Position numbers and translations under genes: made by a program. Source: Candidatus Moraniibacteriota bacterium (lineage in GTDB: Bacteria; Patescibacteriota; Minisyncoccia; Moranbacterales; UBA1568). From it: a stretch of DNA of 64,000 bases. The stretch is from the NCBI GenBank assembly GCA_023261645.1, contig JAHFOO010000001.1, positions 3,871 through 67,870 of the forward strand, written 5' to 3'. Below, one piece after another: positions 11,358-53,730 of the stretch. Position 1 is the first letter of the stretch; the number at the start of each line of letters is the position of its first letter. The notes beneath the pieces were generated by a model that searched no databases, was not told the origin of the DNA, and saw nothing but the letters and a program-made list of their open reading frames with translations.

Positions 11358-11563
11358 AACACTGCTGACAAACCAAACAACTCTTCTTTTTTTTATTTTT
11401 AAAGCTCTCTTGTTTTTTAAAAAAGTTCCCTTATTCTAGGGAAAAAAGAACTCTTTCACAAGAAAAGAACTATTTGACATATGTTTTTTTCTTTGCTACG
11501 GTGGACTATCAATCTTTTCCGCCGATAAGCGGGCCAGCCTTGATTCGGATTCATTTCATACAC

Positions 11564-12721
11564 ACTATGTCACTCACTCTTTCTCAGCAGTTTCAAGACC
11601 TCTTGAAAAAAACAGTTTCTCCTCTCATCATCCTTCCTACCTACCCGAGCCGTGATGCGCTGGCAAGCGCCTTCGCTCTGGCTCTCTTTCTCAAAAACAA
11701 CGGGAAAACAGTGACCCTGGCGAGCGAGCATATCGACATCCACAAAGAAATACTTTCTTTCCTCGAGCAGCCGGAGAACATCATCACTTCCATCGCCGGA
11801 GCACGAGACTTCGTTCTCGCCTTCAATACATCGCGCAACAAAATACTCAGCGTCCGGACAGAAAATGCTCCCGACGAAGTCCGTATCTATCTCACGCCGG
11901 AAAATGGTTCCATCGATCCGCGAGACTTCTCTTTCATTCCGGCCAAATTCAAATTCGATCTGGCCATCGTCATCGGTAGCCCGGACAAGGAACATTTGGG
12001 GAAAATCTATGAAGAAAATCCGGATATTTTTTATGAAATCCCTATTGTCAATATCGATAATCACCCCGAGAATGAATTATTCGGTCAGATAAATCTCGTC
12101 GACATCACTGCTTCTTCCAATGCCGAGATCCTCGCTGAAACATTGGAACCTGCTGACTCGAAATTCTTCACGGAAGCCGTCAGCGAAAGTCTCCTCGCCG
12201 GTATCATTTCCGCTACGGAGAGTTTCCAAAAACGCAACACTACGCCGAAAGCGCTCAAACTCGCCTCACGCCTGATGGACAAAGGAGCTGATCAGCAGAA
12301 GATCGTCCGCTTCCTCTACAAGACACAACCGCTCCATCTCCTCAAGCTCTGGGGACGAGTGATGGCGCAGGTGAAATGGAATGAGGAATTGAAACTCATC
12401 TGGGCTTTCGTCACGATCGAAGACCTCGTCCAGGCACGTGCTCGTGTGGAAGATCTGCCTGATGTATTGGAGAAAATCAAAAGCAATTACTCGAGCGCTC
12501 AGCTCTATATGGTTCTGTATCTGGAAACGAATGTCCTGGTACGCGGTGTCGTCAAAGCGCATTCGAGCGAGGCTCTCGCTCTTTTTGCCGAGCGATTCAA
12601 AGAAGGAACATTGCAAGGCGATACATTCTCTTTCGCTCTTTCCGTTACTACGCCTGAAGAAGCGAGTGACATCGTCATCAATCGATTACAAGATACACTT
12701 GTCCGCACAGAAAATCTGTAG
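11564..12721 (+). CDS. DHH/DHHA1-family phosphoesterase paralogue (NrnA-like) with degenerate catalytic motifs
   Basis: NrnA-like layout, but motif I PSRDALASAFAL replaces the canonical DxD-containing PDGDALGS, and motif III IDNHP replaces IDHHP. Start taken at MSLTLSQQ; the track start at 11474 adds an implausible N-terminus. Confidence 0.55.
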   Translation, partial: TMSLTLSQQFQDLLKKTVSPLIILPTYPSRDALASAFALALFLKNNGKTVTLASEHIDIHKEILSFLEQPENIITSIAGARDFVLAFNTSRNKILSVRTENAPDEVRIYLTPENGSIDPRDFSFIPAKFKFDLAIVIGSPDKEHLGKIYEENPDIFYEIPIVNIDNHPENELFGQINLVDITASSNAEILAETLEPADSKFFTEAVSESLLAGIISATESFQKRNTTPKALKLASRLMDKGADQQKIVRFLYKTQPLHLLKLWGRVMAQVKWNEELKLIWAFVTIEDLVQARARVEDLPDVLEKIKSNYSSAQLYMVLYLETNVLVRGVVKAHSSEALALFAERFKEGTLQGDTFSFALSVTTPEEASDIVINRLQDTLVRTENL

Positions 12722-12846
12722 ATGAAAAAATTCACACACTCCTCTCGCTTTTCGAGGGGATTTTTTTTGCTTTTCTCTCCGTTTTTGAGGTACAATAGCA
12801 ATGATACATTCGGGATGAGAGTACACTTGATACAAAAACAAACACT

Positions 12847-15800
12847 ATGCCAAACGTCATTCATAAAAATACATCTCTCCATTCCGAAAAGGATGAACAG
12901 TCCCAATCGATTCTGAAAAAAATGCGTGATGTTTCGATTGAAGAGCACGCCTCTCGTCTGGCGAATGAAAGCGGGCTCCCCTATGCCGATCTTCACGTCT
13001 TTCCACTCAGTACCGAAGATGTTATTCTCGTCCCAGAAACAGACGCAAAAAAATTCGGTCTTGTTCTCTTCAGTAAACAAAATACCTCGGCTCGATTCGC
13101 CATCCTTGATCCTGCTCGAACCGAGACACTGCAGTTCATAAAGAATTTTTCTGACGAGCACGGATGGCAGGGAGAGATATATGTCGTTTCACAATCATCA
13201 CTCGACCATGCTTGGAAAGCGTATTCCAAACGAACCTTCATTGATAATCTCGATCTCGTTCGTGTCTCTCTTGGAGATGCTGACTTGGAAAAATTCGAAA
13301 AAGATTTCAGCGAACTCATTTCGTTGAAAAGTATCCATACAGCCAATACCTCGCGGGCGATGGAAATCATCCTGGCTGGTGCGAGAAAGCTCCGTTCGAG
13401 TGATGTTCACCTCGAGCCAGCAGAAGATTTTGTCCGTCTCCGTTACCGTATCGATGGCGTTCTGCAAGAAATAGGCAATCTCCCATTGGAGCGATACCAT
13501 CTGATGCTTTCTCGTATCAAAATGATCGCAAAAATGCGACTGAATGTTCGAAAAGTGGCTCAAGACGGTCATTTTTTCGTAAACCTTGAGAATAGGCGTA
13601 TAGACGTCCGTGTCAGCAGTATTCCTGGTAAATTCGGTGAAAACATCAATATGCGCCTCCTCTCTGGAGATGATGTCATCGTCGATGTCACCGCTCTTGG
13701 TCTCCGTGGTCTCGCCTATGATGAAGTGACCAAACAAATCACCAAACCGAACGGCCTCATATTGAATACCGGACCGACCGGCTCCGGAAAAACGACGACA
13801 CTCTATACGCTTCTCAATCATATCAACCAGCCTGATATAAAAGTCATCACCATCGAAGACCCAATCGAGTATACGATTCCGGGTATCGTTCAGACAGAAG
13901 TTTCCAAAAATAAAGATTACACGTTTGCGACAGCCCTCCGAGCCGTTGTTCGTCAAGATCCCGATATCATCTTGGTCGGAGAAATCCGTGATGACGAGAC
14001 AGCTGACATCACCGTCAATGCCGCACTGACTGGGCACCTGGTATTTTCGACCGTACACGCCAACAGTGCTGCTGCTGCTATCCCTCGTTTTATGGAACTC
14101 GGGGTAAAGCCGTCTCTTCTTTCTGCCTCACTCAATGTACTCATCGGACAACGCTTGGTTCGTGTTCTGTGCGAGTACTGCAAAGAATCCTACGAGCCGG
14201 CACACGAAACCATCGAATCCATTTTAAAACTCATCACCATCATTTCTCCGAAAGCAAAAATTTCTCTGCCTCAAAAGGTGACAGTTCTTTACAAATCGGT
14301 TGGTTGTGCGAAATGTCATTTCACAGGCTACCACGGACGAATCGGTATTTTTGAGGTGCTGACAATGACGAAAGATGTGACGGAAATAATAAACAATATG
14401 GGTACCGAACAGGAGATTCTTCGAACCGCTCTGGAAAATGGGATGGTGACGATGACACAGGACGGTATACTCAAAGCGCTCGACGGAATAACGACACTTG
14501 ATGAAGTATGGAGAGTTGCAGATCAGACAGAATCGCTTCGCACTATTTATGCCGAACTCATGCCAAGCGAACTTTCCCGTTCCACGTATATCACCGAAGA
14601 GATTTTTGAAAATACAAAGAAAAAAGTCTCCTCTCTCAAAGAGTTCACCGAATACATAAACGCAATCAATTCTCGATTGCGCATCCCGACGCTTTTTGCG
14701 GGAGCTATTCTGATGAAGGCCGCAGATATCCACATCGAACCAACAGGTGATACGGTAGATGTCCGTTTCCGTATCGACGGTATCCTCCAGACAGCAGTGA
14801 CTTTTCCTCTTACCGACTATCCCGTCCTTGTCGCAGAAATCAAGCTTGCTGCCGGACTCAAGTCAGGCGAACGCTCTGGAACAATCGATGGACGCTTCTC
14901 TCTTACATTCGAGAAGGAACTTCCCGACAAGACGAAGAAGATAGATATTCGACTTTCTATCATTCTTGGTGGCTTTGGAGAAACAATCGTGATGCGACTC
15001 CTCAACCAATCCATCGTCAAACTCGATCTCGATTCGCTCCATATCCGCAAACAAAATCTCGAGAATATCTATACAGCTATCAGCAAACCGCATGGCGTCA
15101 TCCTGAACACCGGCCCGACCGGCTCCGGAAAAACGACGACACTTTATAGTATTCTCTCAAAGCTCAACACTCCAGAAGTGAAAATCATTACTGTCGAAGA
15201 TCCGATAGAATATCAGATCCCCGGCATCCTCCAGACACAGACCAAAGAGAGTGAAAATTATACGTTTGCGACCGCACTACGTTCTCTTGTGCGCCAGAAT
15301 CCGAATATTCTTATGATTGGAGAAATCCGTGATGATGAAACTGCAAAGATGGCTATCCAAGCAGCCAGTACCGGACACCTGGTCCTCTCAACGCTCCATA
15401 CCAATTCGGCTGCCGGTGTCATCTCTCGTCTGAATGCTATGGGTGTGAGCAATGATGACATCGCCAATACCGGGAATCTTTTTATGGCACAACGATTGGT
15501 CCGGAAAGTATGTGAGCACTGCAAAAAATTTCTGCCACCGACAGAAGCAGAGAAAGAAATCATCGAAAAAACACTCAGTTCGATGCCGTCATCAAAAGAA
15601 CAGGAGATGCTTCTAAAAAATATCACTCTCCCTCATACGAACGGTTGCCCTTTTTGTGGTGGTACAGGCTTCTCAGGACAACTGGCAATCACCGAAACAC
15701 TTCTCATAGACAAGGACATCTCAGCACTTATCGCACAGGGAGCTCTTACAGGCGAGATTGAAGAAAAGGCTATAGAACTCGGAATGATTACGCTGACCCA

Positions 15801-15870
15801 AGACGGTATCCTCTCCGTACTTGAAGGAGACACAACTCTCGATGAAGTACGACGCGTGACAGATTTGTAG
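12847..15870 (+). CDS. pilB: Tandem-duplicated (fused) type II/IV secretion ATPase of the PilB/GspE family
   Basis: Two complete ATPase modules in one 1007-aa ORF. Module 1 has GLILNTGPTGSGKTTTLY, ILVGEIRDDETA, TGHLVFSTVHAN and CEYC...CAKC. Module 2 has GVILNTGPTGSGKTTTLY, LMIGEIRDDETA, TGHLVLSTLHTN and CEHC...CPFC. An N-terminal GspE-N-like domain is present. No stop or frameshift separates the halves. Confidence 0.8.
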   Translation: MPNVIHKNTSLHSEKDEQSQSILKKMRDVSIEEHASRLANESGLPYADLHVFPLSTEDVILVPETDAKKFGLVLFSKQNTSARFAILDPARTETLQFIKNFSDEHGWQGEIYVVSQSSLDHAWKAYSKRTFIDNLDLVRVSLGDADLEKFEKDFSELISLKSIHTANTSRAMEIILAGARKLRSSDVHLEPAEDFVRLRYRIDGVLQEIGNLPLERYHLMLSRIKMIAKMRLNVRKVAQDGHFFVNLENRRIDVRVSSIPGKFGENINMRLLSGDDVIVDVTALGLRGLAYDEVTKQITKPNGLILNTGPTGSGKTTTLYTLLNHINQPDIKVITIEDPIEYTIPGIVQTEVSKNKDYTFATALRAVVRQDPDIILVGEIRDDETADITVNAALTGHLVFSTVHANSAAAAIPRFMELGVKPSLLSASLNVLIGQRLVRVLCEYCKESYEPAHETIESILKLITIISPKAKISLPQKVTVLYKSVGCAKCHFTGYHGRIGIFEVLTMTKDVTEIINNMGTEQEILRTALENGMVTMTQDGILKALDGITTLDEVWRVADQTESLRTIYAELMPSELSRSTYITEEIFENTKKKVSSLKEFTEYINAINSRLRIPTLFAGAILMKAADIHIEPTGDTVDVRFRIDGILQTAVTFPLTDYPVLVAEIKLAAGLKSGERSGTIDGRFSLTFEKELPDKTKKIDIRLSIILGGFGETIVMRLLNQSIVKLDLDSLHIRKQNLENIYTAISKPHGVILNTGPTGSGKTTTLYSILSKLNTPEVKIITVEDPIEYQIPGILQTQTKESENYTFATALRSLVRQNPNILMIGEIRDDETAKMAIQAASTGHLVLSTLHTNSAAGVISRLNAMGVSNDDIANTGNLFMAQRLVRKVCEHCKKFLPPTEAEKEIIEKTLSSMPSSKEQEMLLKNITLPHTNGCPFCGGTGFSGQLAITETLLIDKDISALIAQGALTGEIEEKAIELGMITLTQDGILSVLEGDTTLDEVRRVTDL

Positions 15871-15918: not shown

Positions 15919-16263
15919 TTCGCCAAGTAAAAACTGTTTAAACTGTAGACAAACCTCAAGCATAGGAGTCTGAGGAAAGGAAAAGTGTCGAGGTATAGCG
16001 CAGCCGAAACCACCCTACCCGGATCTGGACTGACAGTTCCGCGATTGAGGACAAAAGATAGTAATCCCCAATTGTCTACAGATGAAACAGTCCCCGCTCA
16101 TATCGCTTCGTGTGATGTTGCGAACGAGCCGAGAAACTAGAATTCTTTGTTAAGCGAAATGTCATATTAGCATAGCTTTATTCTTTTGTCAACCCGTGTT
16201 ACAATACAGAGGTATAATCTCACTTCTTCCCTTTATTAAGCCCTCTTCAGACCATTCAAACGT

Positions 16264-19666: not shown

Positions 19667-20323
19667 ATGTTGTATCATCCTCTTGTCATTTTTTTCATCG
19701 AACAGGGCGTACCGGTACAAACAGTCCTCCTTCTTTTGATGCTTCCTGTCGTGGCGACACTCGTCGCTTTTTTCCGTCAGGTCGTAGGCATCAAAGCCTT
19801 CGGTATCTATACGCCATCACTCATCACTTTTGCTCTGCTCGCTTTCGATCCGAATGGGTTGAAATATGGCATCACTATTTTTGTCAGTGTCATATTGGTC
19901 GGTATGGTAACACGTTTTATCCTCAATAGATTTCGCCTTCTTTATCTGCCTCGTGTCGCCATAACGCTTTCCATCGTCTCGCTTACCATTCTTCTTATTC
20001 TCGTCACTGGCGGGATGTATCAGCGTACTGGGCTGGCATCCGTGAGTATTTTTCCTCTCCTTATTATGATCACTCTCGCGGAAAAATTTGTTGCAACCCA
20101 AATCGAGAAAGGAAGTCGGGCCGCTTTCATTCTGGCAGCTGAAACACTTGTTATTTCCATCGTCGGATATTTTCTCGTCAGTTGGCAGACACTCACTGTT
20201 TTGATCCTTGAATACCCCTGGATCATACTCTTTACTTTCGTCATCAATTTTTCTTTGGGAAAATGGACAGGGTTACGCATCACGGAATATTTTCGTTTTC
20301 GAAAGATTGCTCGTCATCTCTAG
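19667..20323 (+). CDS. Polytopic (about 7-TM) membrane protein, first gene of the ATP-grasp module
   Basis: 218 aa, hydrophobic throughout, with six or seven predicted TM helices. Lies immediately upstream of two ATP-grasp genes, which recalls the 7TM partners of RimK-related ligases. Confidence 0.5.
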   Translation: MLYHPLVIFFIEQGVPVQTVLLLLMLPVVATLVAFFRQVVGIKAFGIYTPSLITFALLAFDPNGLKYGITIFVSVILVGMVTRFILNRFRLLYLPRVAITLSIVSLTILLILVTGGMYQRTGLASVSIFPLLIMITLAEKFVATQIEKGSRAAFILAAETLVISIVGYFLVSWQTLTVLILEYPWIILFTFVINFSLGKWTGLRITEYFRFRKIARHL

Positions 20324-20377
20324 ATTTTTTTTATTTAATGCGGTGAGATTCCTGACAGACTCTCCCCCTTCTCCGCT

Positions 20378-21796
20378 ATGTTCGAATTTTTCAAAAAAAG
20401 CCAGGGTTTCTTGGGTATGAATTCCCGGAACCTGGAGTATATCCGTCCGAACAACCGTAAGCGCGGAATGGAGATAGCGGACAGCAAGCTTCTCTGTAAG
20501 CGTATTCTGAAAAAAAATAACCTCGGCGTTTCCACTCTCATCGCGAAAATAAAAAACTATGAGGAACTCGATCAATTCGATTTTTCGACACTCCCCGACA
20601 GTTTCGCACTGAAACCGAATCGTGGTTTCGGTGGAGAAGGAATCATCGTCGTATACGCTCGAAAAAAACTCGCTCGCAATACTACGGACGAAAACAAGAA
20701 TAATGTGTGGATCAAAGCCAATGGATCAACCATCACAGCCGAAGATCTGAAAAGTCATATCCGCAATATCATCGATGGATCCTTTTCTCTTTCAAGCGTT
20801 CCTGATATCGCCTTTTTCGAAGAACGGCTGAAACTTCTCAAACTTTTCAAGCCCTACTCCTATAAAGGTATTCCTGATATCCGTATCATCATTTTCAACC
20901 GAGTGCCTGTTATGGCGATGCTCCGTCTGCCTACGCGTGCTTCTGATGGCAAGGCCAATCTCCAGCAGGGGGCGATCGGTGTCGGTATCGACCTCGCCAC
21001 AGGTACCACAACGACAGCTATTCTCGGTAAAGGCCATCTTATCGAATATATTCCCGGTACTCGACTTGCTCTTTCGGGAATCAAAATCCCCTACTGGAAG
21101 AATATTCTCCGTATGTCCATCGATGCTCAGTCGGTATCGCACCTCGGCTTTCTTGGAGCCGATATCGCCATCGACCGTGATCGAGGGCCGGTCATTCTCG
21201 AGCTCAATGCTCGCCCTGGCCTTTCCATCCAACTCGCGAACTCAAGCGGACTCAAAGAGCGCCTGAAGCGTATCTCGGGACTTAAGATAAAAACTACCGA
21301 ACGTGGTATGCGCGTCGGAATGAATCTTTTCGGCGGCGAGATCGAAGAAGAGATCGAAGAAATTTCAGGTAAACGCGTCATCGGCAGCGTAGAAAAAATC
21401 AAACTCATCGGCAAAGATGGCAGGGAAATCGAGGTCGAGGCGAAAATCGATACCGGTGCCGACTCAACCTCTATCGATATCGAACTTGCTAAACAATTGG
21501 GGTTCGGAGACGCTTTGAAAACATTTGAAGAAAAAGTGGGAGGAAGAGATGTTCTCACTGAACTTTCCAAGGAGGAACGCGAGAAACTCTTTTCTTCCAT
21601 TCCCGATCTTGCTGATACTGTTCCTATAAAATCTTCTCATGGGTATTCATATCGTCCGATCGTACTTACAACACTCATTATCGATTCCATTCCCATTCCG
21701 GCAAAAGTTTCTTGTATTGATCGTTCTCATCTCTCATACCCTGTTATCATAGGTCGTAAACATTTGAGAAAATTTCTCATCGATATCAATAAATAG
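20378..21796 (+). CDS. RimK-related ATP-grasp ligase fused to a C-terminal retropepsin-like (PF05618-type) aspartyl protease domain
   Basis: ATP-grasp blocks FALKPNRGFGGEGIIVV and ADIAIDRDRGPVILELNARPG. C-terminal EKIKLIGKDGREIEVEAKIDTGADSTSIDIELAKQLGF carries the DTGA aspartyl-protease motif. Confidence 0.7.
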   Translation: MFEFFKKSQGFLGMNSRNLEYIRPNNRKRGMEIADSKLLCKRILKKNNLGVSTLIAKIKNYEELDQFDFSTLPDSFALKPNRGFGGEGIIVVYARKKLARNTTDENKNNVWIKANGSTITAEDLKSHIRNIIDGSFSLSSVPDIAFFEERLKLLKLFKPYSYKGIPDIRIIIFNRVPVMAMLRLPTRASDGKANLQQGAIGVGIDLATGTTTTAILGKGHLIEYIPGTRLALSGIKIPYWKNILRMSIDAQSVSHLGFLGADIAIDRDRGPVILELNARPGLSIQLANSSGLKERLKRISGLKIKTTERGMRVGMNLFGGEIEEEIEEISGKRVIGSVEKIKLIGKDGREIEVEAKIDTGADSTSIDIELAKQLGFGDALKTFEEKVGGRDVLTELSKEEREKLFSSIPDLADTVPIKSSHGYSYRPIVLTTLIIDSIPIPAKVSCIDRSHLSYPVIIGRKHLRKFLIDINK

Positions 21797-21856
21797 CGCT
21801 TTCTCGATATTTTTTCCTTATGAAGCTTCATTATAATTTTCTTAACCATAAAAAAT

Positions 21857-22852
21857 ATGCCATTGAAAGATTATATCAAGAACATCAAGCACGGCGGTTT
21901 CAAATCTTTTTTGAAAAAAGCTGTAGAGCTTGGCGTACAAATAGAAATGATTGAAGAGGGGGGATCTCCTATTCTGAAGCTGCACTATCAAGGTAAATCT
22001 ATTTTTTGTTATAAAAGAAATCTGCCTATCTATAAAAGAATGGGTAATCTTACAAAAAACAAAGAGGTAACAAAAACGATTCTCACCGCCTCAGACATAC
22101 AGACACCAAAAGGGATCACAGCCACCTCTCTTCAAGAAGCCTTGAAACTTGTCCGGGAGAGAAAATTAAAATATCCACTCATCTGTAAACCTGTCGACGG
22201 ATCTTTAGCAAAAGGGATGACGTGGGATATCGCTTCCCCCCAAGAACTTCGTGTGGCTATCGTCTATGCAAAAAATGCCTATGGTCGACGCCCGCGGTCG
22301 AGATTTCTGGTCGAAGAAATGTTTGTTGCGAACGAATATCGTGTCTTGGTATTCAATGGTAAGGTACTTTCCTGTGTACAAAAGATTTCTGCAGGAATCA
22401 CCGGTGACGGCGTTTCTTCCATAGAAGAGTTGATTGCTCATTTCAACAGTAAACGATTGTCTGGTTTTGAAATCAAGCTCGATAAAATCGCAAAAGAAAC
22501 TCTCAAGCTACATTCTCTCTCTCTTCAATCCATTCTTCCAAAAAACCACTTCTTCAAACTACGAAACAATCTCAATATGTCTGATGGGGGGAGATCAATC
22601 GAATGTACAAAAAAGATGCATCCTTATTTCAAAGATATTTGTGTGCGTGCCGCTGAGGCTGTAGGACTTACTTATGGAGGGATCGATTTTTTTGCAAAAG
22701 ACATCACTTCCAAGAAGAGCGAGTATGTTATTCTCGAAATAAACCCCAATCCGTTCTACAATATGCATGAAAAACCACTCGTGGAAGGAAAGGGCGTCGA
22801 TGTCTCAAGTGAGATTCTTAGAAGTATTTTCCCTCGATTAAGTAAAAAATAA
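21857..22852 (+). CDS. Stand-alone ATP-grasp protein resembling the N-terminal domain of cyanophycin synthetase
   Basis: LICKPVDGSLAKGM, ITGDGVSSIEELIAHFNSKRLSGFEIKLDKI (compare the CphA GDGxSTIxELI region) and YVILEINPNP. No Mur-ligase domain is present. Confidence 0.6.
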   Translation: MPLKDYIKNIKHGGFKSFLKKAVELGVQIEMIEEGGSPILKLHYQGKSIFCYKRNLPIYKRMGNLTKNKEVTKTILTASDIQTPKGITATSLQEALKLVRERKLKYPLICKPVDGSLAKGMTWDIASPQELRVAIVYAKNAYGRRPRSRFLVEEMFVANEYRVLVFNGKVLSCVQKISAGITGDGVSSIEELIAHFNSKRLSGFEIKLDKIAKETLKLHSLSLQSILPKNHFFKLRNNLNMSDGGRSIECTKKMHPYFKDICVRAAEAVGLTYGGIDFFAKDITSKKSEYVILEINPNPFYNMHEKPLVEGKGVDVSSEILRSIFPRLSKK

Positions 22853-25899: not shown

Positions 25900-27051
25900 C
25901 TATTTTCTTATTGGCATCATAATATAAAGATAATTTTCCGTAAGAGTAGTATTTTCCTTATTTTGTATACGAAGTGCTGCAGGAGTAACTCCATCATTGG
26001 CTAAAAAGAGTATTTTTTCACTTACGAGAGCGTTTATTCCTTCTAAGACATAACGTGGATTAAAAACAATAGTAAGTGGTTCTGTACCTTGTTGTATTTC
26101 TATCGGTAATACGGTCTTATTTTCCCCTATTTCCTGCGATGCTGATGATATGGTACATATTTTTTCTTCTGGTTGAAAAAGAAGTGTTATTTCACCTGAA
26201 TTATATGAAGAAAAACTACTAGCTATTTTTACCGCTCTCTGAAAAGATTCTTTTTCTAAAATAACCTGAAGAGAGAAGCTTTTTGGAATTATTTGTTTAT
26301 AATCTGGGTATTTTCCATTTATAATCCTTGATACGATCTGTACACCATCTATTTCAAAAAATATCTGATTTTCTTTTAAAGCTATCTTTATATCCCTGCT
26401 TTCAGGCGTGATAATATGAATAATTTCATGTAACGTATTCCCAGGAATGATAAGTGATGGGTTTTGAGAAAGGAAATCATTATATCCACTTCCTTGATTT
26501 GTAAAAGGAATTATTTCTTCAGCAAGACGAAAACTGTCTGTGGTAGCAATTTCTATCATATCCTTATAAAAGAAAATATGTACGCCGGTAAGTTCAAGAC
26601 GTGCATTATTCAAACTAATACAGAATAAAAGCCGAGAAAGAGCTGTTTTAAGTTCTTGTGCTGGGAAAGAAAAGAAATATTCTTCTTTATATTCAGGAAT
26701 AATAGGAAAATCCTTCCCATCTAATCCTTTAATTTTTATTTGATAAGAAGTGCTTATTATTTTTAATCCTTCATTATCACTCTCTAATTCGAGAATATCT
26801 CCTAAAGGGAGATTATGTATAAAATTACTTAAAAGTTTTGCTGGTACAGCTATTTTTCCTTCTTTTTCTATTTTTGCTCCTATAGAGGTAATTATTCCTA
26901 TTTCCAAGTTTGTTGCAGAAATTTTTAACCTTCCATTTTCTGTTTCTATTAAGAAATTACTGAGAATAGGAAGAGTTGCTTGTTTTCCTGCTATTTTTTC
27001 CAAATAAGAAATGGCTCGATTAAGGTTTTCTTGTGTACAGATGAGTTTCAT
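25900..27051 (-). CDS. dnaN: DNA polymerase III beta sliding clamp
   Basis: MKLICTQENLNRAISYLEKIAGKQATLPILSNFLIE. 383 aa. Immediately downstream of dnaA. Confidence 0.9.
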   Translation of the reverse strand: MKLICTQENLNRAISYLEKIAGKQATLPILSNFLIETENGRLKISATNLEIGIITSIGAKIEKEGKIAVPAKLLSNFIHNLPLGDILELESDNEGLKIISTSYQIKIKGLDGKDFPIIPEYKEEYFFSFPAQELKTALSRLLFCISLNNARLELTGVHIFFYKDMIEIATTDSFRLAEEIIPFTNQGSGYNDFLSQNPSLIIPGNTLHEIIHIITPESRDIKIALKENQIFFEIDGVQIVSRIINGKYPDYKQIIPKSFSLQVILEKESFQRAVKIASSFSSYNSGEITLLFQPEEKICTISSASQEIGENKTVLPIEIQQGTEPLTIVFNPRYVLEGINALVSEKILFLANDGVTPAALRIQNKENTTLTENYLYIMMPIRK

Positions 27052-27312
27052 AAGACTATATATTAATAGTTTCTTTTAAATTATATTATAAAAACTTCTT
27101 ATTATCATTAGGGGTGTGAATATCTGGATAAGTCATAATAATGCTTTATAAAAGGTATTATTTTTAAGAATATAGAAATGTAATATAAAAGAAAAGTAAC
27201 AAAAGAATATTTTTTCAAAAATAATTAAAGAAGAATCATTTTTTATCCACAAAATTTCTTCTCTTATACAAACACTTTACACGACTTTTAGTGAGTTATA
27301 CAAGATTATACA
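27052..27312. other. Putative oriC / DNA-unwinding region (dnaA-dnaN intergenic)
   Basis: 260-bp region, extremely AT-rich, with a perfect DnaA box TTATCCACA at 27243-27251 and a one-mismatch box (TCTGGATAAG) near 27160. Confidence 0.5.
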
Positions 27313-28728
27313 TCAAACTGGATAATAAAGACGCTCTTTAAGAACATTTAACTCTTCTTTCAGGCGTGGATGAGAGTCTTTATTTTTATTTATTTTTTCA
27401 AATGCGTGTAGAGCAGTCGTATGATCTCTTCCTCCAAAAATATCACCGATGGTTGAAAATGGAGTTTGGAGTTCAGTACGAAGAATATACATCATTACCT
27501 GGCGTGGATGAGAAATTTCCTTTTTTCTTCCTTTTTTTATAATATCTTCTTTGGTAATATTATAAAATTCAGTAATAACACGAAAAATATCATCAACTTG
27601 AAGTGTCTTTTTATTATTTTCAATAAGTTGAGAAAGTATTTTCCCTGTATTTTCCAGTGTAGGTGAAATTTTATGAAATTCACAGAAAGCGATGACTCGA
27701 TTGAGAGCTCCTTCAAGTTCACGGATATTTTGAGTGATATTTTCGGCGATAAAACGTATAGCAGGAGTGTCTATAATAAAGCTTTTTTCAGCAATTTTTG
27801 ATTCCAAAATAGCCACTCTTGTTTCAAAGTTTGGACGACTAATATCAGTGATCATACCACCTTCAAAACGTGAACGGAGACGCTCTTCAAGGGTGGGGAT
27901 GGCTTTTGGTGGTCGGTCACTTGATATGACAATTTGTTTATTGAGTTGATAGAGTGAGTTGAAAATATGGAAAAATTCGTTCTGGGTCTTTTCTCTCCCG
28001 GAAAGGAATTGAATATCATCAATAATAAGAAGATCCATCTGTTGATAATATTCTTTAAATTTATCTATTTTCTGATTTTTAATGGAATCTACGAGTTCCG
28101 TCGTAAAACGTTCTGAGTTGATGTATTTAATTCTTTTTTCAGGTGAATTCTTCACCACCTCATTTCCAATAGACTGAAGCAGATGAGTTTTTCCCAACCC
28201 AACACCCCCATAAATAAAAAGAGGGTTATAAGCCATACCGAGATTTTGTGAAACCGCATAGCAAGCTGCACGTGCAAGATCGTTATTTTCTGCAACGATG
28301 AAGTTCTCAAATGTGTATCGATTATTAAGGTTGGTTTCATGAAAAAGAGGAGTGGATGGACCTGATTCAGTAAAAAATGGTTTTTCAATCAGTTTCTTTC
28401 GGACAAATCCTGTGGTCTCAGGTGATTTTATAGCATCTATATTTTTAAGAGAATCTACGGTTGGCAGAGAAGAAGTGAATTTTTCAGGTGCAATAACACA
28501 GCGGATGGTTTGGATATCACCATTAATACCTTTAAGAGCACGTAAAATATAGAGATTATACTTGTTTTCAAGCCATTCTTTTGCAAAACCATTTGGTACA
28601 CCAATGGTTATAATTCCATCTTGATTACTAACAATACTCGTGTTTTTAAACCACGTAATAAAATTAGCACGAGAAATAGAGAGCTCCATTTGTCCTAAAA
28701 CAGCCTTCCATAACTCCTCGTTTGTCAT
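27313..28728 (-). CDS. dnaA: Chromosomal replication initiator DnaA
   Basis: GGVGLGKTHLLQSIGNE Walker A, the AAA+ sensor and a C-terminal DNA-binding domain. 471 aa. Confidence 0.9.
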   Translation of the reverse strand: MTNEELWKAVLGQMELSISRANFITWFKNTSIVSNQDGIITIGVPNGFAKEWLENKYNLYILRALKGINGDIQTIRCVIAPEKFTSSLPTVDSLKNIDAIKSPETTGFVRKKLIEKPFFTESGPSTPLFHETNLNNRYTFENFIVAENNDLARAACYAVSQNLGMAYNPLFIYGGVGLGKTHLLQSIGNEVVKNSPEKRIKYINSERFTTELVDSIKNQKIDKFKEYYQQMDLLIIDDIQFLSGREKTQNEFFHIFNSLYQLNKQIVISSDRPPKAIPTLEERLRSRFEGGMITDISRPNFETRVAILESKIAEKSFIIDTPAIRFIAENITQNIRELEGALNRVIAFCEFHKISPTLENTGKILSQLIENNKKTLQVDDIFRVITEFYNITKEDIIKKGRKKEISHPRQVMMYILRTELQTPFSTIGDIFGGRDHTTALHAFEKINKNKDSHPRLKEELNVLKERLYYPV

Positions 28729-28926
28729 AAAATAAAGCTATTATCAGAGAGTATAAAAACATCAAATGGAATTATATCACGGCTGTACGGGTCGGCATAG
28801 GGTGAAAAAGTGTGTGAAGTGTGGATAAGCGGTGTATAACAAGAGAAAAGGCTCCATCATTGACTTTCTTTCTTTTTCTGGTAGACTGGAAAAACATCCA
28901 ATGACTTAAAATCTAATGTTTATTAT
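28729..28926. promoter_or_regulatory. dnaA upstream region with DnaA box (second oriC half / dnaA autoregulation site)
   Basis: Perfect box TGTGGATAA at 28820-28828, between divergent dnaA and rpmH. Confidence 0.4.
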
Positions 28927-29067
28927 ATGCCAAAAAGAACCTATCAACCAAAAACCCTCAAACGTGCCAGACGACACGGTTTTCTCGAGAGAATGAATAC
29001 TGTCGGGGGAAGAAAAGTAGTGGCAAATCGTCGTAGAGATGGAAGAAAAAAATTGACGGTAGCGTAG
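28927..29067 (+). CDS. rpmH: 50S ribosomal protein L34
   Basis: Not in the track (46 aa). Translation [46 protein letters not shown] is canonical L34. Confidence 0.85.
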
Positions 29068-29070
29068 GAT

Positions 29071-29418
29071 ATGTTGAAAAAAGGCTTTCGTTTGCGAAAA
29101 AAAGAGGATTTTGATAGAGTCTTTCGCTTCGGTAAGCCTCTTTTTTTTGGAGAAGAAATTGGCTGTCGATATTTACTTGATGCTCCGTCGATACGATTAG
29201 GATTTTCTCTTGGTAAAAAATATCTTCCTTTGGCTACTGATCGGAACAGATTTCGAAGAATATTTTCTGAAGTGTTTTATAATCATCAAGAAGAGTGGCC
29301 AAAATCGGGAGATATACTCTTTTTCCTTGTAAAAAGGCCAAAAAAGGTGGATACTAAACAAACAGAGAAAATGATGCAAAATCTTTTTCAAACCATAAAC
29401 AAAAATCGTAAAGTATAA
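29071..29418 (+). CDS. rnpA: RNase P protein component
   Basis: Basic 115-aa protein, LRKKEDFDRVFRFGK...RNRFRR, immediately after rpmH. Confidence 0.8.
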   Translation: MLKKGFRLRKKEDFDRVFRFGKPLFFGEEIGCRYLLDAPSIRLGFSLGKKYLPLATDRNRFRRIFSEVFYNHQEEWPKSGDILFFLVKRPKKVDTKQTEKMMQNLFQTINKNRKV

Positions 29419-29424
29419 AACAAT

Positions 29425-30156
29425 ATGATGCATATCTTTGATATTTCTATCTACCAACCGCTCTATAATGCCCTTATATTCTTTTATAATGTCGTTCCAG
29501 GGTATGATTTCGGTGTGGCTATTATACTCACAACGCTTGTTCTGAAGTCCCTCTTGATACCTCTTTCCAAGAAGCAGATAGAATCGCAGAAAAAGATGCA
29601 GGAATTACAGCCACAAATCAAGGAACTGCAACAAAAACACAAAAATGATAAAGAGAAACAAACAAAGGCGTTGATGGAATTTTATAAAGAGCATAAAACA
29701 AACCCATTTTCCGGATGCCTCCCGCTTATTATCCAACTTGTATTTCTTATTGCCATCTATCGAGTGATTATTAATATATCTCGGGCTGGTTTTGTGGTTA
29801 ATCCAAGCGATTTATATGCATTCATACCTGATCCGGGCGAGATCAATCACCTTTTTCTTCATTTTATAGACTTGACGAAACCAAACTATGTTTTAGCGTT
29901 CTTTTCTGCTATTGCTCAGTATTTTCAAACAAAGATGCTTTTCCAGAACCAAAGTAAGACTGAAACTAAAAACACCCCTTCCTCCGAACCCGACTTTGCG
30001 ACTATAATGAATAAGCAGATGCTCTATTTGGGTCCAGGACTGACATTCTTTATCGGAGCGACATTCCCGGCCGCCTTGGCTCTCTACTGGCTCTTCTCGA
30101 CACTGTTTATGCTTTTTCAGCAGATGGTTATCTTTAAACCGAAACAAGAGAAATAA
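29425..30156 (+). CDS. yidC: Membrane protein insertase YidC (short form)
   Basis: GCLPLIIQLVFLIAIYRVI and a C-terminal basic tail. The order rnpA-yidC-jag is conserved. Confidence 0.85.
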   Translation: MMHIFDISIYQPLYNALIFFYNVVPGYDFGVAIILTTLVLKSLLIPLSKKQIESQKKMQELQPQIKELQQKHKNDKEKQTKALMEFYKEHKTNPFSGCLPLIIQLVFLIAIYRVIINISRAGFVVNPSDLYAFIPDPGEINHLFLHFIDLTKPNYVLAFFSAIAQYFQTKMLFQNQSKTETKNTPSSEPDFATIMNKQMLYLGPGLTFFIGATFPAALALYWLFSTLFMLFQQMVIFKPKQEK

Positions 30157-46737: not shown

Positions 46738-47697
46738 ATGCAAAATTTTGACTCCGAATTCCATACTTTGAAATATATCATAGCGAAAGCAAATCGCATC
46801 TTGCTTTTTGCTCACAACCGACCAGATCCCGATACTGTCGGTGCCAATCTCGCTCTGTCAGAATACATCAAAAACTGTGGAAAACATGTGGATATTGCCT
46901 GTTTCGATGCTTTTCCTGATAATCTGAAGCATTTATTCGAGGGCACCTTCTTTCATCCGGAACAACTTGATCTTACGAGCTACGACGCTATCATCGCATC
47001 TGACAGTGTCGATCGCGGTTTTGATAAAGTCATAGGAACCCTTTCTGAAAAACAAGTTGTTGTCCTTATTGATCATCATCCAGATATACATATTACCGGT
47101 GATGTGAATATGGTGGATGCAGAATATTCTTCATCGTCTGAACTGCTCTATCTTTTCTTCTCGACAACAGAAATAAAAATCACCAAAGTGATGGCGACAA
47201 TGCTCCTTACAGGAATACTTTTTGATACCGGAGGACTACAACATTCCAACGTTTCTCCACGCGTTATGGAAATAGCATCGGATCTCGTGAAGAAAGGGGC
47301 TCCACTGGAAAAAATAACACAGATGATTTTCACAAAGAAAAATATCGGCGCGCTGAAGCTGTGGGGGAGAGCCTTCGAAAAAGCACACTTCAATAGAAAA
47401 AATGGGATGCTCGTCACGGCTATTACGAAAAAGGATGTGGAAGATTGCCAAGCCTCTCCGGAAGATATCTATCAGGTTTCTTCCATACTGAGCTCTGTTC
47501 CGGATACCAAGTTTGCTCTCGTCCTTTCGGAAAGAGATGATAATACGGTGAGAGCCAGTTTGCGATCATCAGATCAGGAAGGTGTTGATGTTTCGGCCAT
47601 AGCTCATCAGTTTGGTGGTGGGGGACACAAGCTTGCCAGCGGTTTCGAAATACAAGGGAAACTGTTGGAGACAGAAGAAGGCTGGACAATACAATAA
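46738..47697 (+). CDS. nrnA: Bifunctional oligoribonuclease/pAp phosphatase NrnA (DHH/DHHA1)
   Basis: Canonical motifs HNRPDPDTVGANLAL, IDHHP and GGGH (DHHA1). The rbfA-nrnA adjacency is conserved. Confidence 0.8.
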   Translation: MQNFDSEFHTLKYIIAKANRILLFAHNRPDPDTVGANLALSEYIKNCGKHVDIACFDAFPDNLKHLFEGTFFHPEQLDLTSYDAIIASDSVDRGFDKVIGTLSEKQVVVLIDHHPDIHITGDVNMVDAEYSSSSELLYLFFSTTEIKITKVMATMLLTGILFDTGGLQHSNVSPRVMEIASDLVKKGAPLEKITQMIFTKKNIGALKLWGRAFEKAHFNRKNGMLVTAITKKDVEDCQASPEDIYQVSSILSSVPDTKFALVLSERDDNTVRASLRSSDQEGVDVSAIAHQFGGGGHKLASGFEIQGKLLETEEGWTIQ

Positions 47698-52837: not shown

Positions 52838-52977
52838 CTTTTTGCTCCGACAAAAATCCGGGGCGCTACACACAGAAAGCTACGCTCGCTCGCTTCCTAC
52901 TCACGCCCTTCTCCTCCCATTACCACTAAAAAAGTAAAAAGGAACAACATAAAGTCATTCCTTTTTACTTTGCTAGA

Positions 52978-53048
52978 GCGGGTAAGGGGAGTCGAACCCC
53001 TATCTAATCCTTGGCAAGGACTCATAATAGCCGCTATACGATACCCGC
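52978..53048 (-). tRNA. tRNA-Gly (anticodon GCC)
   Basis: Reverse-complement acceptor GCGGGTA/TACCCGC, anticodon stem AGTCC/GGATT and loop TTGCCAA. Confidence 0.85.
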
Positions 53049-53069
53049 GAATATTCAATTCGTCTTCTG

Positions 53070-53141
53070 TGGGACTGGATGGGATCGAACCATCGACCAA
53101 GCGGTTATGAGCCGCGCGCTCTACCACTGAGCTACAGTCCC
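53070..53141 (-). tRNA. tRNA-Met, elongator type (anticodon CAT; could instead be tRNA-Ile2/lysidine)
   Basis: Acceptor GGGACTG/CAGTCCC has a G1:C72 pair, so it is not an initiator. Anticodon loop CTCATAA. tilS is present in this window. Confidence 0.75.
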
Positions 53142-53244
53142 AAGCTCTTATATAAGCCTTTTCATCTTCTTATCCACCACCTATACAGTCATTTTTAAAA
53201 GATTTTTGAAAAGAGCTCAAACTCTTCTGTTGACAGACACTTTG

Positions 53245-53316
<72 letters not shown>

Positions 53317-53382
53317 AGATCCATACACTTTTTACTGTATTTCTTGTGGATAACTGACTTATACGCTCAAATAGGCTGTATG

Positions 53383-53456
53383 TGCACGCTCAAGGATTCG
53401 AACCTTGGACCCCCTCGGTGTAAACGAGGTGCTCTAACCAACTGAGCTAAGCGTGC
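53383..53456 (-). tRNA. tRNA-Val (anticodon TAC)
   Basis: Acceptor GCACGCT/AGCGTGC, anticodon stem CCTCG/CGAGG and loop TTTACAC. Confidence 0.85.
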
Positions 53457-53498
53457 TTCTCGCTCATTTCATTCACTCTGTGCCCAAGAGAGGACTCG
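53455..53498. repeat. 44-bp perfect direct repeat (copy 1) duplicating the tRNA-Leu(GAG) 3' end plus flank; copy 2 at 53621-53664
   Basis: GCTTCTCGCTCATTTCATTCACTCTGTGCCCAAGAGAGGACTCG occurs twice. The last 18 nt equal the 3' end of tRNA-Leu(GAG). Confidence 0.6.
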
Positions 53499-53646
53499 GT
53501 CACGAATATTTTTTCTGTAGAAAAAATTTCCCGACCCTGCCTCGTGGTTTTTTCTTCTGAAAAAACAACTCTCCGGCTTTCTCGACCTCACGTAAGTGAA
53601 GCAGTTCACTTACTTCTTGAGCTTCTCGCTCATTTCATTCACTCTG

Positions 53647-53730
53647 TGCCCAAGAGAGGACTCGAACCTCCAATCCCTTGCGAGAACTAGCACCTCAAGC
53701 TAGCGCGTATACCAATTCCGCCACCTGGGC
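53647..53730 (-). tRNA. tRNA-Leu (anticodon GAG)
   Basis: Acceptor GCCCAGG/CTTGGGC, anticodon stem CTAGC/GCTAG, loop TTGAGGT and a long variable arm. Confidence 0.85.

What the first reader, a model, noticed from the sequence alone, without database searches (positions are those of the whole stretch)
12847..15870. Covalently tandem PilB/GspE secretion ATPase (two complete modules, 1007 aa)
A single uninterrupted ORF encodes two full PilB/GspE-type ATPase modules. Each has Walker A GPTGSGKTTTLY, Walker B (I/L)(L/M)(V/I)GEIRD, a His box TGHLV(F/L)ST(V/L)H(A/T)N and a tetracysteine zinc motif (CEYC...CAKC, and CEHC...CPFC).

A GspE-N-like domain precedes module 1, and a second N2-like segment precedes module 2. 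The two cores are only about 70% identical. This is therefore an ancient fusion, not an assembly duplication. Both halves look catalytically intact.

Secretion ATPases work as homohexamers, so a fused dimer implies a trimer-of-dimers motor with potentially asymmetric subunits.

The gene stands alone. No pilC, pilM, pilin or prepilin-peptidase genes are adjacent. It is followed by a clean terminator.
Basis: seen in the sequence. Interest (0 to 1): 0.55.

Follow-up and report, generated by a model that had tools for sequence, protein, structure and literature searches.

The report
Two-in-one pilus motor ATPase gene
An ultrasmall (Moranbacteria) bacterium encodes a pilus/secretion motor ATPase whose complete engine unit occurs twice in one chain; this conserved natural fusion implies a ring of three double subunits instead of six single ones, which could make the symmetry of these motors testable.

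Summary
The ORF is real: 12847-15870 (+), 1007 aa. It encodes one N1 (GSPII/MshEN-fold) domain followed by two complete PilB/GspE-type modules, each with an N2D and a CTD.

Every catalytic residue known from Geobacter PilB is present in both modules and invariant in 85 orthologues. This includes Walker A, the Asp box, the catalytic Glu, the His box, both trans-acting Arg fingers and the tetracysteine Zn site.

The modules are 43-46% identical, and 66% only between Walker A and the His box.

It is not an assembly artefact. At least 120 clusters (53-91% identity) from independent assemblies have the same ~1005-aa architecture, mostly Moranbacteria and other Parcubacteria.

The locus TsaE(-)/NrnA-like DHH(+)/ATPase(+)...RuvB is conserved. 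Relatives carry a single-module gene at the same locus. One relative carries three modules, the middle one an M2/M1 mosaic, as unequal crossing-over would produce.

No pilC, pilin or pilD gene lies in the 64 kb.

The most likely mechanism is a trimer of covalent dimers forming a pseudo-hexameric extension motor. That would mirror the predicted platform trimer with two cytoplasmic domains per chain. This step is inferred, not shown.

I found no paper describing the architecture. It is a new variant of a known kind.

The parts
12847..15870 (+). Tandem PilB/GspE-type ATPase gene (1007 aa plus stop)
   Evidence: ORF list and translation; Pfam T2SSE x2, E 3e-217; NCBIfam GspE and PilB models
12973..13227 (+). 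N1 domain (GSPII / MshEN fold), aa 43-127. Present once only. Lacks the c-di-GMP-binding motif.
   Evidence: Pfam PF05157, 29 bits against a cut-off of 23.1. Neither the strict nor the relaxed MshEN motif of PMC5013675 matches.
13354..13716 (+). Module 1 N2D (aa 170-290), carrying Arg fingers R255 and R270
   Evidence: Core HMM. R255 and R270 are invariant. They map to GmPilB R271 and R286 by identical spacing.
13717..14526 (+). Module 1 CTD (aa 291-560): Walker A 309-316, Asp box 337-341, catalytic E379, His box 395-406, Zn site C442/C445/C487/C490
   Evidence: The AF2 model matches PilF/PilB/GspE chains with TM-score up to 0.92 normalised to the target chain.
14527..14682 (+). Inter-module linker (aa 561-612). 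It begins with a conserved helix motif LxxIYxELMxxxLxRS, followed by a low-confidence hinge at 571-577.
   Evidence: Mean pairwise identity is 0.36. Y568, just before the linker, is invariant, and L564, L571, M572 and L576 are at least 90% conserved. pLDDT is below 50 at 571-577. The same motif occurs at both junctions of the triple-module P0008.
14683..15057 (+). Module 2 N2D (aa 613-737), carrying Arg fingers R702 and R717
15058..15867 (+). Module 2 CTD (aa 738-1007): Walker A 756-763, Asp box 784-788, catalytic E826, His box 842-853, Zn site C889/C892/C934/C937
15877..15921 (+). Intrinsic-terminator-like hairpin flanked by an A-run and a T-run
   Evidence: RNA fold -17.2 kcal/mol, z = -4.76; sequence
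12740..12770 (+). Terminator-like hairpin plus T-run between the upstream DHH gene and the ATPase gene. It suggests the ATPase is its own transcription unit.
   Evidence: Scan hit of 8 pairs, 5 of them GC, followed by T8; sequence
11474..12721 (+). Conserved upstream neighbour: a divergent NrnA-like DHH phosphoesterase. The real start is probably internal, because orthologues are 375-385 aa.
   Evidence: Pfam DHH match is weak. PDB sequence hits to NrnA, Rv2837c and TM1595 at E 7e-15 to 1e-7. Same gene order in loci L001, L002, L004-L006, L008, L019 and L020. Found on the same large contigs as the tandem ATPase.
13774..13802 (+). 29-nt DNA word identical to 15115-15143 (the Walker A codons PTGSGKTTTL in both modules)
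   Evidence: It is the longest exact repeat between the modules, whose overall DNA identity is 60%.

Best explanation
The gene encodes the stand-alone PilB/GspE-type extension ATPase of a Moranbacteria (Parcubacteria/Minisyncoccia, CPR) genome. Its motor unit (N1-N2 linker + N2D + CTD) was duplicated in frame, giving N1-[N2D-CTD]-linker-[N2D-CTD].

Shown:
- Both modules keep every cis and trans catalytic element.
- Both are under purifying selection, but they have diverged and specialised.
- The architecture is vertically inherited at a conserved locus near oriC.
- Relatives have one module at that locus.
- Intragenic recombination has produced a three-module variant and a homogenised variant.

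Inferred:
- Three chains assemble into one six-module ring (trimer of covalent dimers) in which M1 and M2 alternate.
- All six nucleotide sites lie at M1/M2 interfaces and all are active.
- Only three N1 anchors project from the ring.
- This ring would dock on a trimeric PilC-type platform whose chains each offer two cytoplasmic domains, so M1 and M2 could each serve one kind of platform domain.
- It would then drive assembly of type IV (or competence) pili whose other genes lie elsewhere in the genome.
For: Architecture and motifs.

Clade assignment: each half matches PilB, GspE and PilF far better than PilT (PilB 454/389 bits, GspE 451/415 bits, PilT 184/155 bits). The tetracysteine motif marks the PilB/GspE clade (PMC5424180).

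Catalytic residues: the counterparts of GmPilB residues R271, R286, E357, E395, T411, H413, H420 and R455 are found at identical spacing in both modules. All are invariant in 85 sequences.

Conservation: mean pairwise identity is 0.68 for the M1 CTD, 0.62 for the M2 CTD and 0.36 for the linker.

Specialisation: 89 sites are conserved alike in both modules, 7 are fixed differences, 31 are conserved only in M1 and 13 only in M2.

Family breadth: at least 120 full-length clusters and 13 tandem representatives at 50% clustering. Source names include Moranbacteria, Minisyncoccota, Parcubacteria and Paceibacterota.

Synteny: TsaE(-)/DHH(+)/ATPase(+)...RuvB is kept down to 44% identity.

Module number:
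- Single-module orthologues sit at the same locus (P0138, P0143) and are M1-like throughout.
- The triple-module P0008 sits at the same locus. Its middle module is M2-like in the N part and M1-like in the C part.
- Module counts seen are 1, 2 and 3, all divisors of six. No protein longer than three modules appeared among the top hits of three searches.

Platform model: published models place an ATPase hexamer on a platform trimer with two cytoplasmic domains per chain (PMC10191384; PMC11656802; PMC10790770).

T4P in the lineage: components are widespread in CPR (PMC6744442) and are reported for Moranbacteria bins (PMC9530719).
Against: No oligomeric state was measured or confidently modelled. 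AF2 gave pTM 0.55 for the full chain and 0.63 for CTD1-linker-N2D2, with a disordered hinge. I had no access to coordinates or multimer prediction.

No pilC, pilM, pilin, pilD or pilT gene is in the window or in any of the related loci I read. The partner machine is therefore assumed, and a second, cluster-encoded PilB in the same genome cannot be excluded.

The module-count argument rests on a single three-module protein from one contig.

The published PilB cycle is C2-symmetric. An alternating M1/M2 ring puts unlike modules opposite each other, which is compatible with that cycle but untested.

The deep origin of M2 (internal duplication versus fusion of two paralogues) is not resolved. The neighbour-joining (NJ) tree of the modules, built from their pairwise distances, does not resolve it because those distances are saturated.
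Confidence: 0.6

Rival explanations
1. Stacked double ring. Six chains form a dodecameric module assembly, with an M1 hexamer stacked on an M2 hexamer as in D1/D2 ATPases (p97, ClpB) or KaiC. Only one ring touches the membrane platform.
For: Tandem ATPase modules in one chain commonly stack in other ring ATPases (established knowledge, not tested here). The ~50-residue linker with a flexible hinge would allow it. M1 keeps more module-specific constraints than M2 (31 against 13 sites), as expected if only one ring contacts partners. The three-module variant is equally compatible with three stacked rings.
Against: PilB-type rings are built from N2D(n)-CTD(n+1) packing units, with one face turned to PilC (PMC5424180, PMC10191384). 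No stacked PilB/GspE/PilT ring appears among the structural matches. A second ring remote from the platform would burn ATP without an evident output, yet M2 keeps every catalytic and Arg-finger residue. N1, the anchoring domain, is not duplicated.
Confidence: 0.15
2. The protein is not a type IV pilus motor. It serves another task suggested by its conserved DNA-repair/replication neighbourhood and its NrnA-like neighbour, for example a ComGA-like competence (DNA-uptake) ATPase feeding nucleotide scavenging, or an ATPase co-opted by the ori-proximal Patescibacteria T4SS.
For: The gene never sits with T4P genes in any locus read. Its constant neighbours are PolA, TsaE, DHH/NrnA-like, RuvA/B/C, Fpg and HolA. 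Each half scores below the PilB and GspE equivalog cut-offs. ComGA is a strong partial match (238 and 227 bits). CPR are thought to depend on DNA uptake (PMC6744442). T4SS_pilin genes lie near the ATPase in L008 and L025 and at 62156-63226 in the window, and the Patescibacteria T4SS is ori-proximal (PMC12102498).
Against: Competence pseudopili are themselves type IV filaments that need a PilC/ComGB platform and pilins, so this is a sub-case of the main reading rather than a different mechanism. Conserved gene order among housekeeping genes in tiny genomes need not reflect function, and terminator-like hairpins flank the gene. No DHH-ATPase fusion was seen among the 120 DHH relatives listed. 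The ComGA cut-off of 300 is not reached by either half. Monoderm-type T4SS lack a VirB11-type ATPase, and this protein belongs to the PilB/GspE clade, not the VirB11 clade (107 bits against a cut-off of 250).
Confidence: 0.2
3. Artefact: two adjacent genes merged by a sequencing or assembly error (missed stop or frameshift), or a collapsed or expanded repeat.
For: None found.
Against: Of the 120 hits listed, 117 are 979-1044 aa with 98-100% query coverage (the other three: the 1460-aa three-module P0008 and two truncated sequences), drawn from NCBI, JGI, ENA and Logan assemblies. One orthologue is 91% identical, in Moranbacteria CG_4_9_14_3_um_filter_45_14. The junction contains a conserved motif with an invariant Tyr just upstream of it. 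The modules share only 60% DNA identity and at most a 29-nt exact word, so an assembler could not confuse them.
Confidence: 0.01

Closest known systems
PilB / PilF type IVa pilus extension ATPases (Geobacter metallireducens PilB 5TSG/5TSH/6OLJ; Thermus thermophilus PilF 5IT5/5OIU)
   Same: Each module has the N2D+CTD fold (target-normalised TM-score 0.88-0.92, about 41% identity). Each has Walker A, the atypical Walker B with catalytic Glu, the Asp box, the His box, two Arg fingers and the tetracysteine Zn site at identical spacing. An N-terminal GSPII-type domain is present.
   Different: There are two motor modules per chain, against one. There is one N1 per two modules. Each half scores below the TIGR02538 cut-off (454 and 389 against 675.65). 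The gene is not next to pilC. PilF multiplies its N-terminal GSPII domains, not its motor.
GspE/EpsE type II secretion ATPase (Vibrio 1P9R, 4KSR, 4PHT)
   Same: Comparable similarity to PilB (E 1e-91 to 1e-80). Zn motif and N1 domain are present.
   Different: Each half is below the TIGR02533 cut-off (451 and 415 against 630.25). CPR lack an outer membrane and a secretin (PMC6744442), so a classical T2SS is not expected. GspE needed an engineered Hcp1 fusion to hold a hexamer (the 4KSR/4KSS entries are GspE-Hcp1 fusion proteins; that the fusion was needed is my own knowledge). Here nature supplies a covalent link instead.
TfpB, the orphan second extension motor of Acinetobacter baylyi (PMC8213720)
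   Same: A PilB paralogue encoded away from pilC that still drives T4P extension. It shows that a stand-alone position does not exclude a pilus role.
   Different: TfpB is single-module and works beside a canonical PilB. The NF053534 score here is 686 summed over both modules, against a cut-off of 850.
Platform proteins PilC/GspF/PulF (internally duplicated; predicted trimer)
   Same: An internal duplication of the functional unit, with three chains predicted to supply six sites (PMC10191384; PMC10790770). The tandem ATPase would be the motor-side counterpart of that 3 x 2 design.
   Different: A different protein family (membrane platform, not ATPase). The correspondence is an inference.
Alternating or linked ring NTPases: F1 alpha3beta3, RuvBL1/2, Pex1/Pex6, and engineered covalently linked ClpX (own knowledge, not tested here)
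   Same: A six-membered ring built from two non-identical, alternating NTPase modules. Covalent linkage permits position-specific mutation.
   Different: Those rings use separate chains or artificial linkers, and some have non-catalytic members. Here both modules are in one natural chain and both look active.
T2SSF-T2SSE fusion proteins (P0335, P0339, P0363 'Candidatus Brocadiia' and others) and their tandem relative P0139
   Same: Another lineage in which the PilB/GspE motor is rearranged by fusion. P0139 also has two motor modules.
   Different: They are unrelated in origin: P0139's two modules are each other's closest relatives (100% bootstrap). They carry soluble PilC-like domains instead of N1. 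M1 of P0139 has lost the Walker A lysine.

Membership tests
PilT/VirB11-like secretion ATPase superfamily (Pfam T2SSE, PF00437) | Walker A, atypical Walker B followed by a catalytic Glu, Asp box, His box, two Arg fingers | tested here: met
   All are present in both modules and invariant in 85 orthologues. They map to the GmPilB residues of PMC5424180.
PilB/GspE clade (extension/secretion ATPases) | C-terminal tetracysteine Zn-binding motif, absent from PilT/PilU | tested here: met
   C442/C445/C487/C490 and C889/C892/C934/C937 are invariant. Clade criterion from PMC5424180.
PilB/GspE clade (extension/secretion ATPases) | N-terminal N1 (GSPII/T2SSE_N) domain ahead of N2D | tested here: met
   PF05157 at aa 43-127, 29 bits against 23.1. 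Present once only; module 2 has no N1.
Type IV-A pilus assembly ATPase PilB (NCBIfam TIGR02538, equivalog) | Whole-protein score at or above the curated cut-off of 675.65 for a single motor | tested here: not met
   The halves score 454.5 and 388.9. The full protein reaches 832.6 only by summing two modules.
Type II secretion ATPase GspE (NCBIfam TIGR02533, equivalog) | Score at or above 630.25 for a single motor | tested here: not met
   The halves score 450.7 and 415.3. The full protein reaches 855.2 by summation.
Competence ATPase ComGA (NF041000) | Score at or above 300 | tested here: not met
   The halves score 238.1 and 226.7.
PilT/PilU retraction ATPases (TIGR01420) | Score at or above 319.1; no Zn tetracysteine motif | tested here: not met
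   The halves score 184.3 and 154.7. The Zn motif is present.
Type IV pilus / T2SS machinery component | Genomic linkage with a platform gene (pilC/gspF), pilM/N/O, pilins or prepilin peptidase | tested here: not met
   None in the 64-kb window, and none within 10 kb in related loci L001-L008, L019, L020 and L025. The rest of the genome could not be read.
MshEN c-di-GMP receptor domain | [quoted passage not shown] | tested here: not met
   Neither the strict nor the relaxed pattern of PMC5013675 matches anywhere in the protein.
PilB/GspE functional unit | Hexameric ring of six motor modules acting on the platform protein | not testable with these tools
   Only monomer AF2 without coordinates was available (pTM 0.55 and 0.63). 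Multimer prediction or biochemistry is needed.

The most novel reading that the evidence does not exclude
The tandem ATPase is a natural, obligatory hetero-ring motor. Three chains give an alternating M1-M2 hexamer whose two module types have co-evolved with the two different cytoplasmic domains of a trimeric PilC platform. On this reading the motor-platform pair is a 3 x 2 machine throughout. The one-, two- and three-module variants at the same locus would then be snapshots of how ring ATPases change subunit stoichiometry by unequal crossing-over while keeping six modules per ring.
Probability: 0.3. Interest if true: 0.75.

Novelty: new variant of a known kind. Interest (0 to 1): 0.55.

Why it matters
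How PilB/GspE hexamers couple ATP turnover to the platform protein is still debated. The open points include the symmetry of the working ring (C2, C3 or C6) and the stoichiometry with PilC (PMC5424180, PMC6858323, PMC10191384, PMC10790770).

A natural covalent dimer with two diverged but active modules fixes the register of subunits in the ring. That allows mutations in every second position only, an experiment that otherwise needs engineered linked constructs. It also tests directly the proposed match between six ATPase modules and a platform trimer with duplicated cytoplasmic domains.

The family is a conserved, ori-proximal core gene of Parcubacteria. These bacteria are thought to depend on pili and DNA uptake for an episymbiotic life, so the gene is also relevant to CPR biology.

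The one-, two- and three-module series at one locus is a clean example of the evolution of module number by intragenic recombination.

Tried and rejected
1. Neighbour-joining (NJ) tree of 174 motor modules with 200 bootstraps, to ask whether M1 and M2 are sisters (internal duplication) or come from different paralogues. No deep grouping was recovered (support 0) because distances are saturated at about 0.9. Only pairwise position-specific orthology among closer relatives could be shown.

2. AF2 of the full chain (pLDDT 81, pTM 0.55) and of CTD1-linker-N2D2 (pLDDT 85, pTM 0.63), to see whether the junction forms a rigid intrachain packing unit. The result is inconclusive, and no coordinates or PAE were available.

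3. Locating pilC, pilins or a second PilB in the same genome. The genome-contig scan returned only two Moranbacteria loci plus unrelated PilBs. Look-ups of the best single-module hits gave the same stand-alone locus or short contigs. I had no Parcubacteria PilC sequence with which to seed a search.

4. Search for a DHH-ATPase fusion as a functional link. None was found among the 120 DHH relatives listed.

5. c-di-GMP regulation through N1. Rejected, because the motif is absent.

6. PilT-like identity of module 2 (an extension-plus-retraction chimera). Rejected.

7. P0139 as support for a 2:2 motor-to-platform stoichiometry. Rejected, because its relatives carry the same two T2SSF domains with a single motor.

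8. Literature searches for a described tandem PilB/GspE. Nothing was found. The library is not exhaustive.

9. Rfam and tRNA scans found nothing in the 390-nt gap after the gene.
Full report
**1. Observation**

The ORF at 12847-15870 (+) is uninterrupted and encodes 1007 aa. Pfam finds the T2SSE secretion-ATPase domain twice (E 3e-217) and one MshEN/GspE-N domain at aa 43-127. A core HMM built from the two halves places the motor modules at aa 170-560 (M1) and 611-1007 (M2).

The identity figure is wrong. BLASTP gives 43% over 422 aa. Global alignment gives 46% for the cores. By region it is 38% for N2D, 41% for the Zn subdomain and 66% only between Walker A and the His box. DNA identity is 60%.

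A hairpin with flanking A- and T-runs follows the stop codon (-17.2 kcal/mol, z = -4.8). Another terminator-like hairpin separates the gene from its upstream neighbour.

**2. Not an artefact; a conserved family**

A search of 5.8 billion clustered proteins returned full-length relatives for 117 of the 120 hits listed. They are 979-1044 aa, 53-91% identical and cover 98-100% of the query. They come from NCBI, JGI, ENA and Logan assemblies. Where named, the sources call them Moranbacteria/Moraniibacteriota, Minisyncoccota or Patescibacteria 'GspE/PulE family protein'.

An exhaustive HMMER scan of 1.84 billion representatives (clustered at 50% identity) found 13 further two-module representatives, down to 37% identity. 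They include Parcubacteria GW2011_GWA2_47_8 (KKU82539.1) and Paceibacterota MAGs.

The closest genomes are Moranbacteria CG_4_9_14_3_um_filter_45_14 (91%) and Moraniibacteriota MFD12003 bin65 (83%).

The junction is not a read-through scar. It starts with a conserved helix motif (Y568 invariant; L564, L571, M572 and L576 at least 90% conserved).

**3. What each module is**

Each half alone matches PilB, GspE and PilF far better than PilT. The predicted structure (pLDDT 81) superposes on PilF, PilB and GspE chains with TM-score up to 0.92 normalised to the target chain.

Neither half reaches the curated equivalog cut-offs for PilB, GspE, TfpB or ComGA. The whole protein passes the PilB and GspE cut-offs only because two modules add up.

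The functional residues defined for Geobacter PilB (PMC5424180) have counterparts at identical spacing in both modules:

| GmPilB | R271 | R286 | E357 | E395 | T411 | H413 | H420 | R455 |
|---|---|---|---|---|---|---|---|---|
| M1 | R255 | R270 | E337 or E341 | E379 | T395 | H397 | H404 | R439 |
| M2 | R702 | R717 | E784 or E788 | E826 | T842 | H844 | H851 | R886 |

All of these residues, and the eight Zn cysteines, are invariant in 85 orthologues. Both modules therefore keep the elements that act on their own nucleotide and the Arg fingers that act on a neighbour's.

N1 lacks the c-di-GMP-binding motif of MshEN.

**4. The modules are not equivalent**

M2 evolves somewhat faster: CTD mean pairwise identity is 0.62 against 0.68, and N2D 0.60 against 0.64.

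Of 428 aligned positions, 89 are conserved alike in both modules and 7 are fixed differences. A further 31 are conserved only in M1 and 13 only in M2.

Among the closer relatives, M1 is always nearer to the window's M1, and M2 to its M2. For these relatives the fusion therefore predates their divergence.

**5. Context**

The neighbours are PolA(-), TsaE(-) and an NrnA-like DHH protein(+) upstream. Downstream lie RuvB, a bPH protein, YebC, RuvC and a 7TM-transglutaminase-associated/ATP-grasp set. dnaN and dnaA follow 10-13 kb away. RuvA, HolA, DUF3048 and Fpg lie further upstream.

No pilC, pilM, pilD or pilT gene and no gene with a class III (pilin-type) signal-peptide motif occurs in the 64 kb.

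The order TsaE-DHH-ATPase...RuvB is kept in Moranbacteria. It is also kept in a Parcubacteria relative at 44% identity, and, without DHH, in another. The DHH gene is found on the same large contigs as the tandem gene (contig lengths 766,823, 635,596, 939,379 and 652,564).

**6. One, two and three modules at one locus**

The best single-module hits, P0138 and P0143, sit at the same DHH-linked locus. P0138 is M1-like along its whole length. A Minisyncoccia single-module gene is also stand-alone, next to dnaA, dnaN and a PBP gene.

P0008 (1460 aa) lies at the same locus and has three complete modules. Its middle module resembles the last module over the linker, N2D and first half of the CTD (identity 0.5-0.8 against 0.2-0.4). 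It resembles the first module over the C-terminal third (0.54-0.70 against 0.30-0.46). This is the product expected from unequal crossing-over between M2 of one copy and M1 of another.

In P0129, at the same locus, the two modules are up to 95% identical in their centre. That points to gene conversion or re-duplication.

In the window, the longest exact DNA repeat between the modules is a 29-nt word over the Walker A codons.

**7. Mechanism**

Shown: two active-looking, diverged PilB-type motors and one N1 in a conserved chain.

Inferred: three chains form one six-module ring with alternating M1 and M2.

The reasons for this inference are:
- PilB-type rings are built from N2D(n)-CTD(n+1) packing units, with nucleotide bound between units (PMC5424180, PMC10191384).
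- Both modules retain trans-acting Arg fingers.
- The module numbers seen (1, 2, 3) all divide six, and nothing longer appeared in three large searches.
- The design mirrors the current model of a platform trimer whose chains each present two duplicated cytoplasmic domains to the six ATPase subunits.

The ring would have three N1 anchors instead of six.

AF2 could not settle the geometry. pTM was 0.55 for the full chain and 0.63 for the junction construct, with a low-confidence hinge at 571-577. A stacked double ring remains possible.

The target filament is presumed to be the type IV or competence pilus common in CPR (PMC6744442; PMC9530719). The stand-alone TfpB motor of Acinetobacter is a precedent. 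The partner genes were not located.

**8. Novelty**

Databases label these proteins simply as GspE/PulE or PilB. Five full-text searches and two recent reviews gave no description of a tandem PilB/GspE motor. The library is incomplete, so prior mention cannot be excluded.

I rate it a new variant of a known kind. It is of moderate to good interest because it offers a natural linked-subunit system for the open questions of motor symmetry and motor-platform stoichiometry.

Noticed in passing
L001:10001-14383 (protein P0008, JGI 3300022698 contig Ga0248662_100121): A three-module version (1460 aa) of the same ATPase at the same TsaE-DHH locus. All three modules carry intact motifs. The middle one is an M2(N)/M1(C) mosaic, consistent with unequal crossing-over. 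It is known from a single contig.
   Followed up: yes
Protein P0139 (1047 aa, NCBI+Logan, 37.7-kb contig; not in the window): An independent tandem PilB/GspE ATPase. Its N-terminus carries two soluble PilC/GspF-like (T2SSF) domains instead of N1, and its first module has lost the Walker A lysine (GSGTT). Its relatives (about 610-640 aa, including one named 'Candidatus Brocadiia') are T2SSF-T2SSE fusions with one motor. Their precomputed Pfam lists show T2SSF plus T2SSE, but how many T2SSF domains each carries was not checked.
   Followed up: partly
window 11474-12721 (+): A second, divergent NrnA-like DHH phosphoesterase always sits just upstream of the ATPase in Parcubacteria. A canonical DHH/DHHA1 NrnA next to rbfA is at 46738-47697. 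The functional link to the ATPase is unknown, and no fusion was found.
   Followed up: partly
window 25900-29420: dnaN (25900-27051, -) and dnaA (27313-28728, -), followed by yidC (29425-30156) and an R3H-domain protein (Jag-like; my reading of the Pfam R3H hit). GC drops to 0.31-0.36 across 26-30 kb. This is probably the chromosomal origin, about 10-13 kb from the ATPase gene.
   Followed up: no
window 62156-63226 (+); also L008:4605-5819 and L025:1258-2340: Patescibacteria T4SS_pilin (PF18895) genes recur in the wider neighbourhood of the stand-alone ATPase locus. In L025 they sit beside a VirB4-like gene and dnaA. Ori-proximal T4SS has been described (PMC12102498). No evidence links it to this ATPase.
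   Followed up: partly
window 13774-13802 and 15115-15143: A 29-nt exact DNA repeat covers the Walker A codons of both modules, although their overall DNA identity is 60%. It may be a micro-conversion tract or a recombination substrate.
   Followed up: partly
window 14560 (Met572 codon): A nearly invariant Met lies at the start of the inter-module linker and is also present at both junctions of P0008. It could be an internal start yielding free M2. No Shine-Dalgarno-like sequence lies upstream, but the annotated start has none either.
   Followed up: no
window 15925-16260: The ~390-nt gap between the ATPase terminator and ruvB has no Rfam or tRNA hit. It contains a strong sigma-70-like promoter match on the minus strand (16192-16164, 10 of 12 positions).
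   Followed up: no
window 19667-22852: A 7TM_transglut membrane protein is followed by ATPgrasp_ST/RimK-like ligases, one of them fused to a Zn-protease-like domain. This cassette is conserved downstream of ruvC in all related loci. Its function is unknown.
   Followed up: no
window 52976-53730 (-): A cluster of five tRNA genes (Gly, Met, Phe, Val, Leu). There are ten tRNA genes in the window overall.
   Followed up: no
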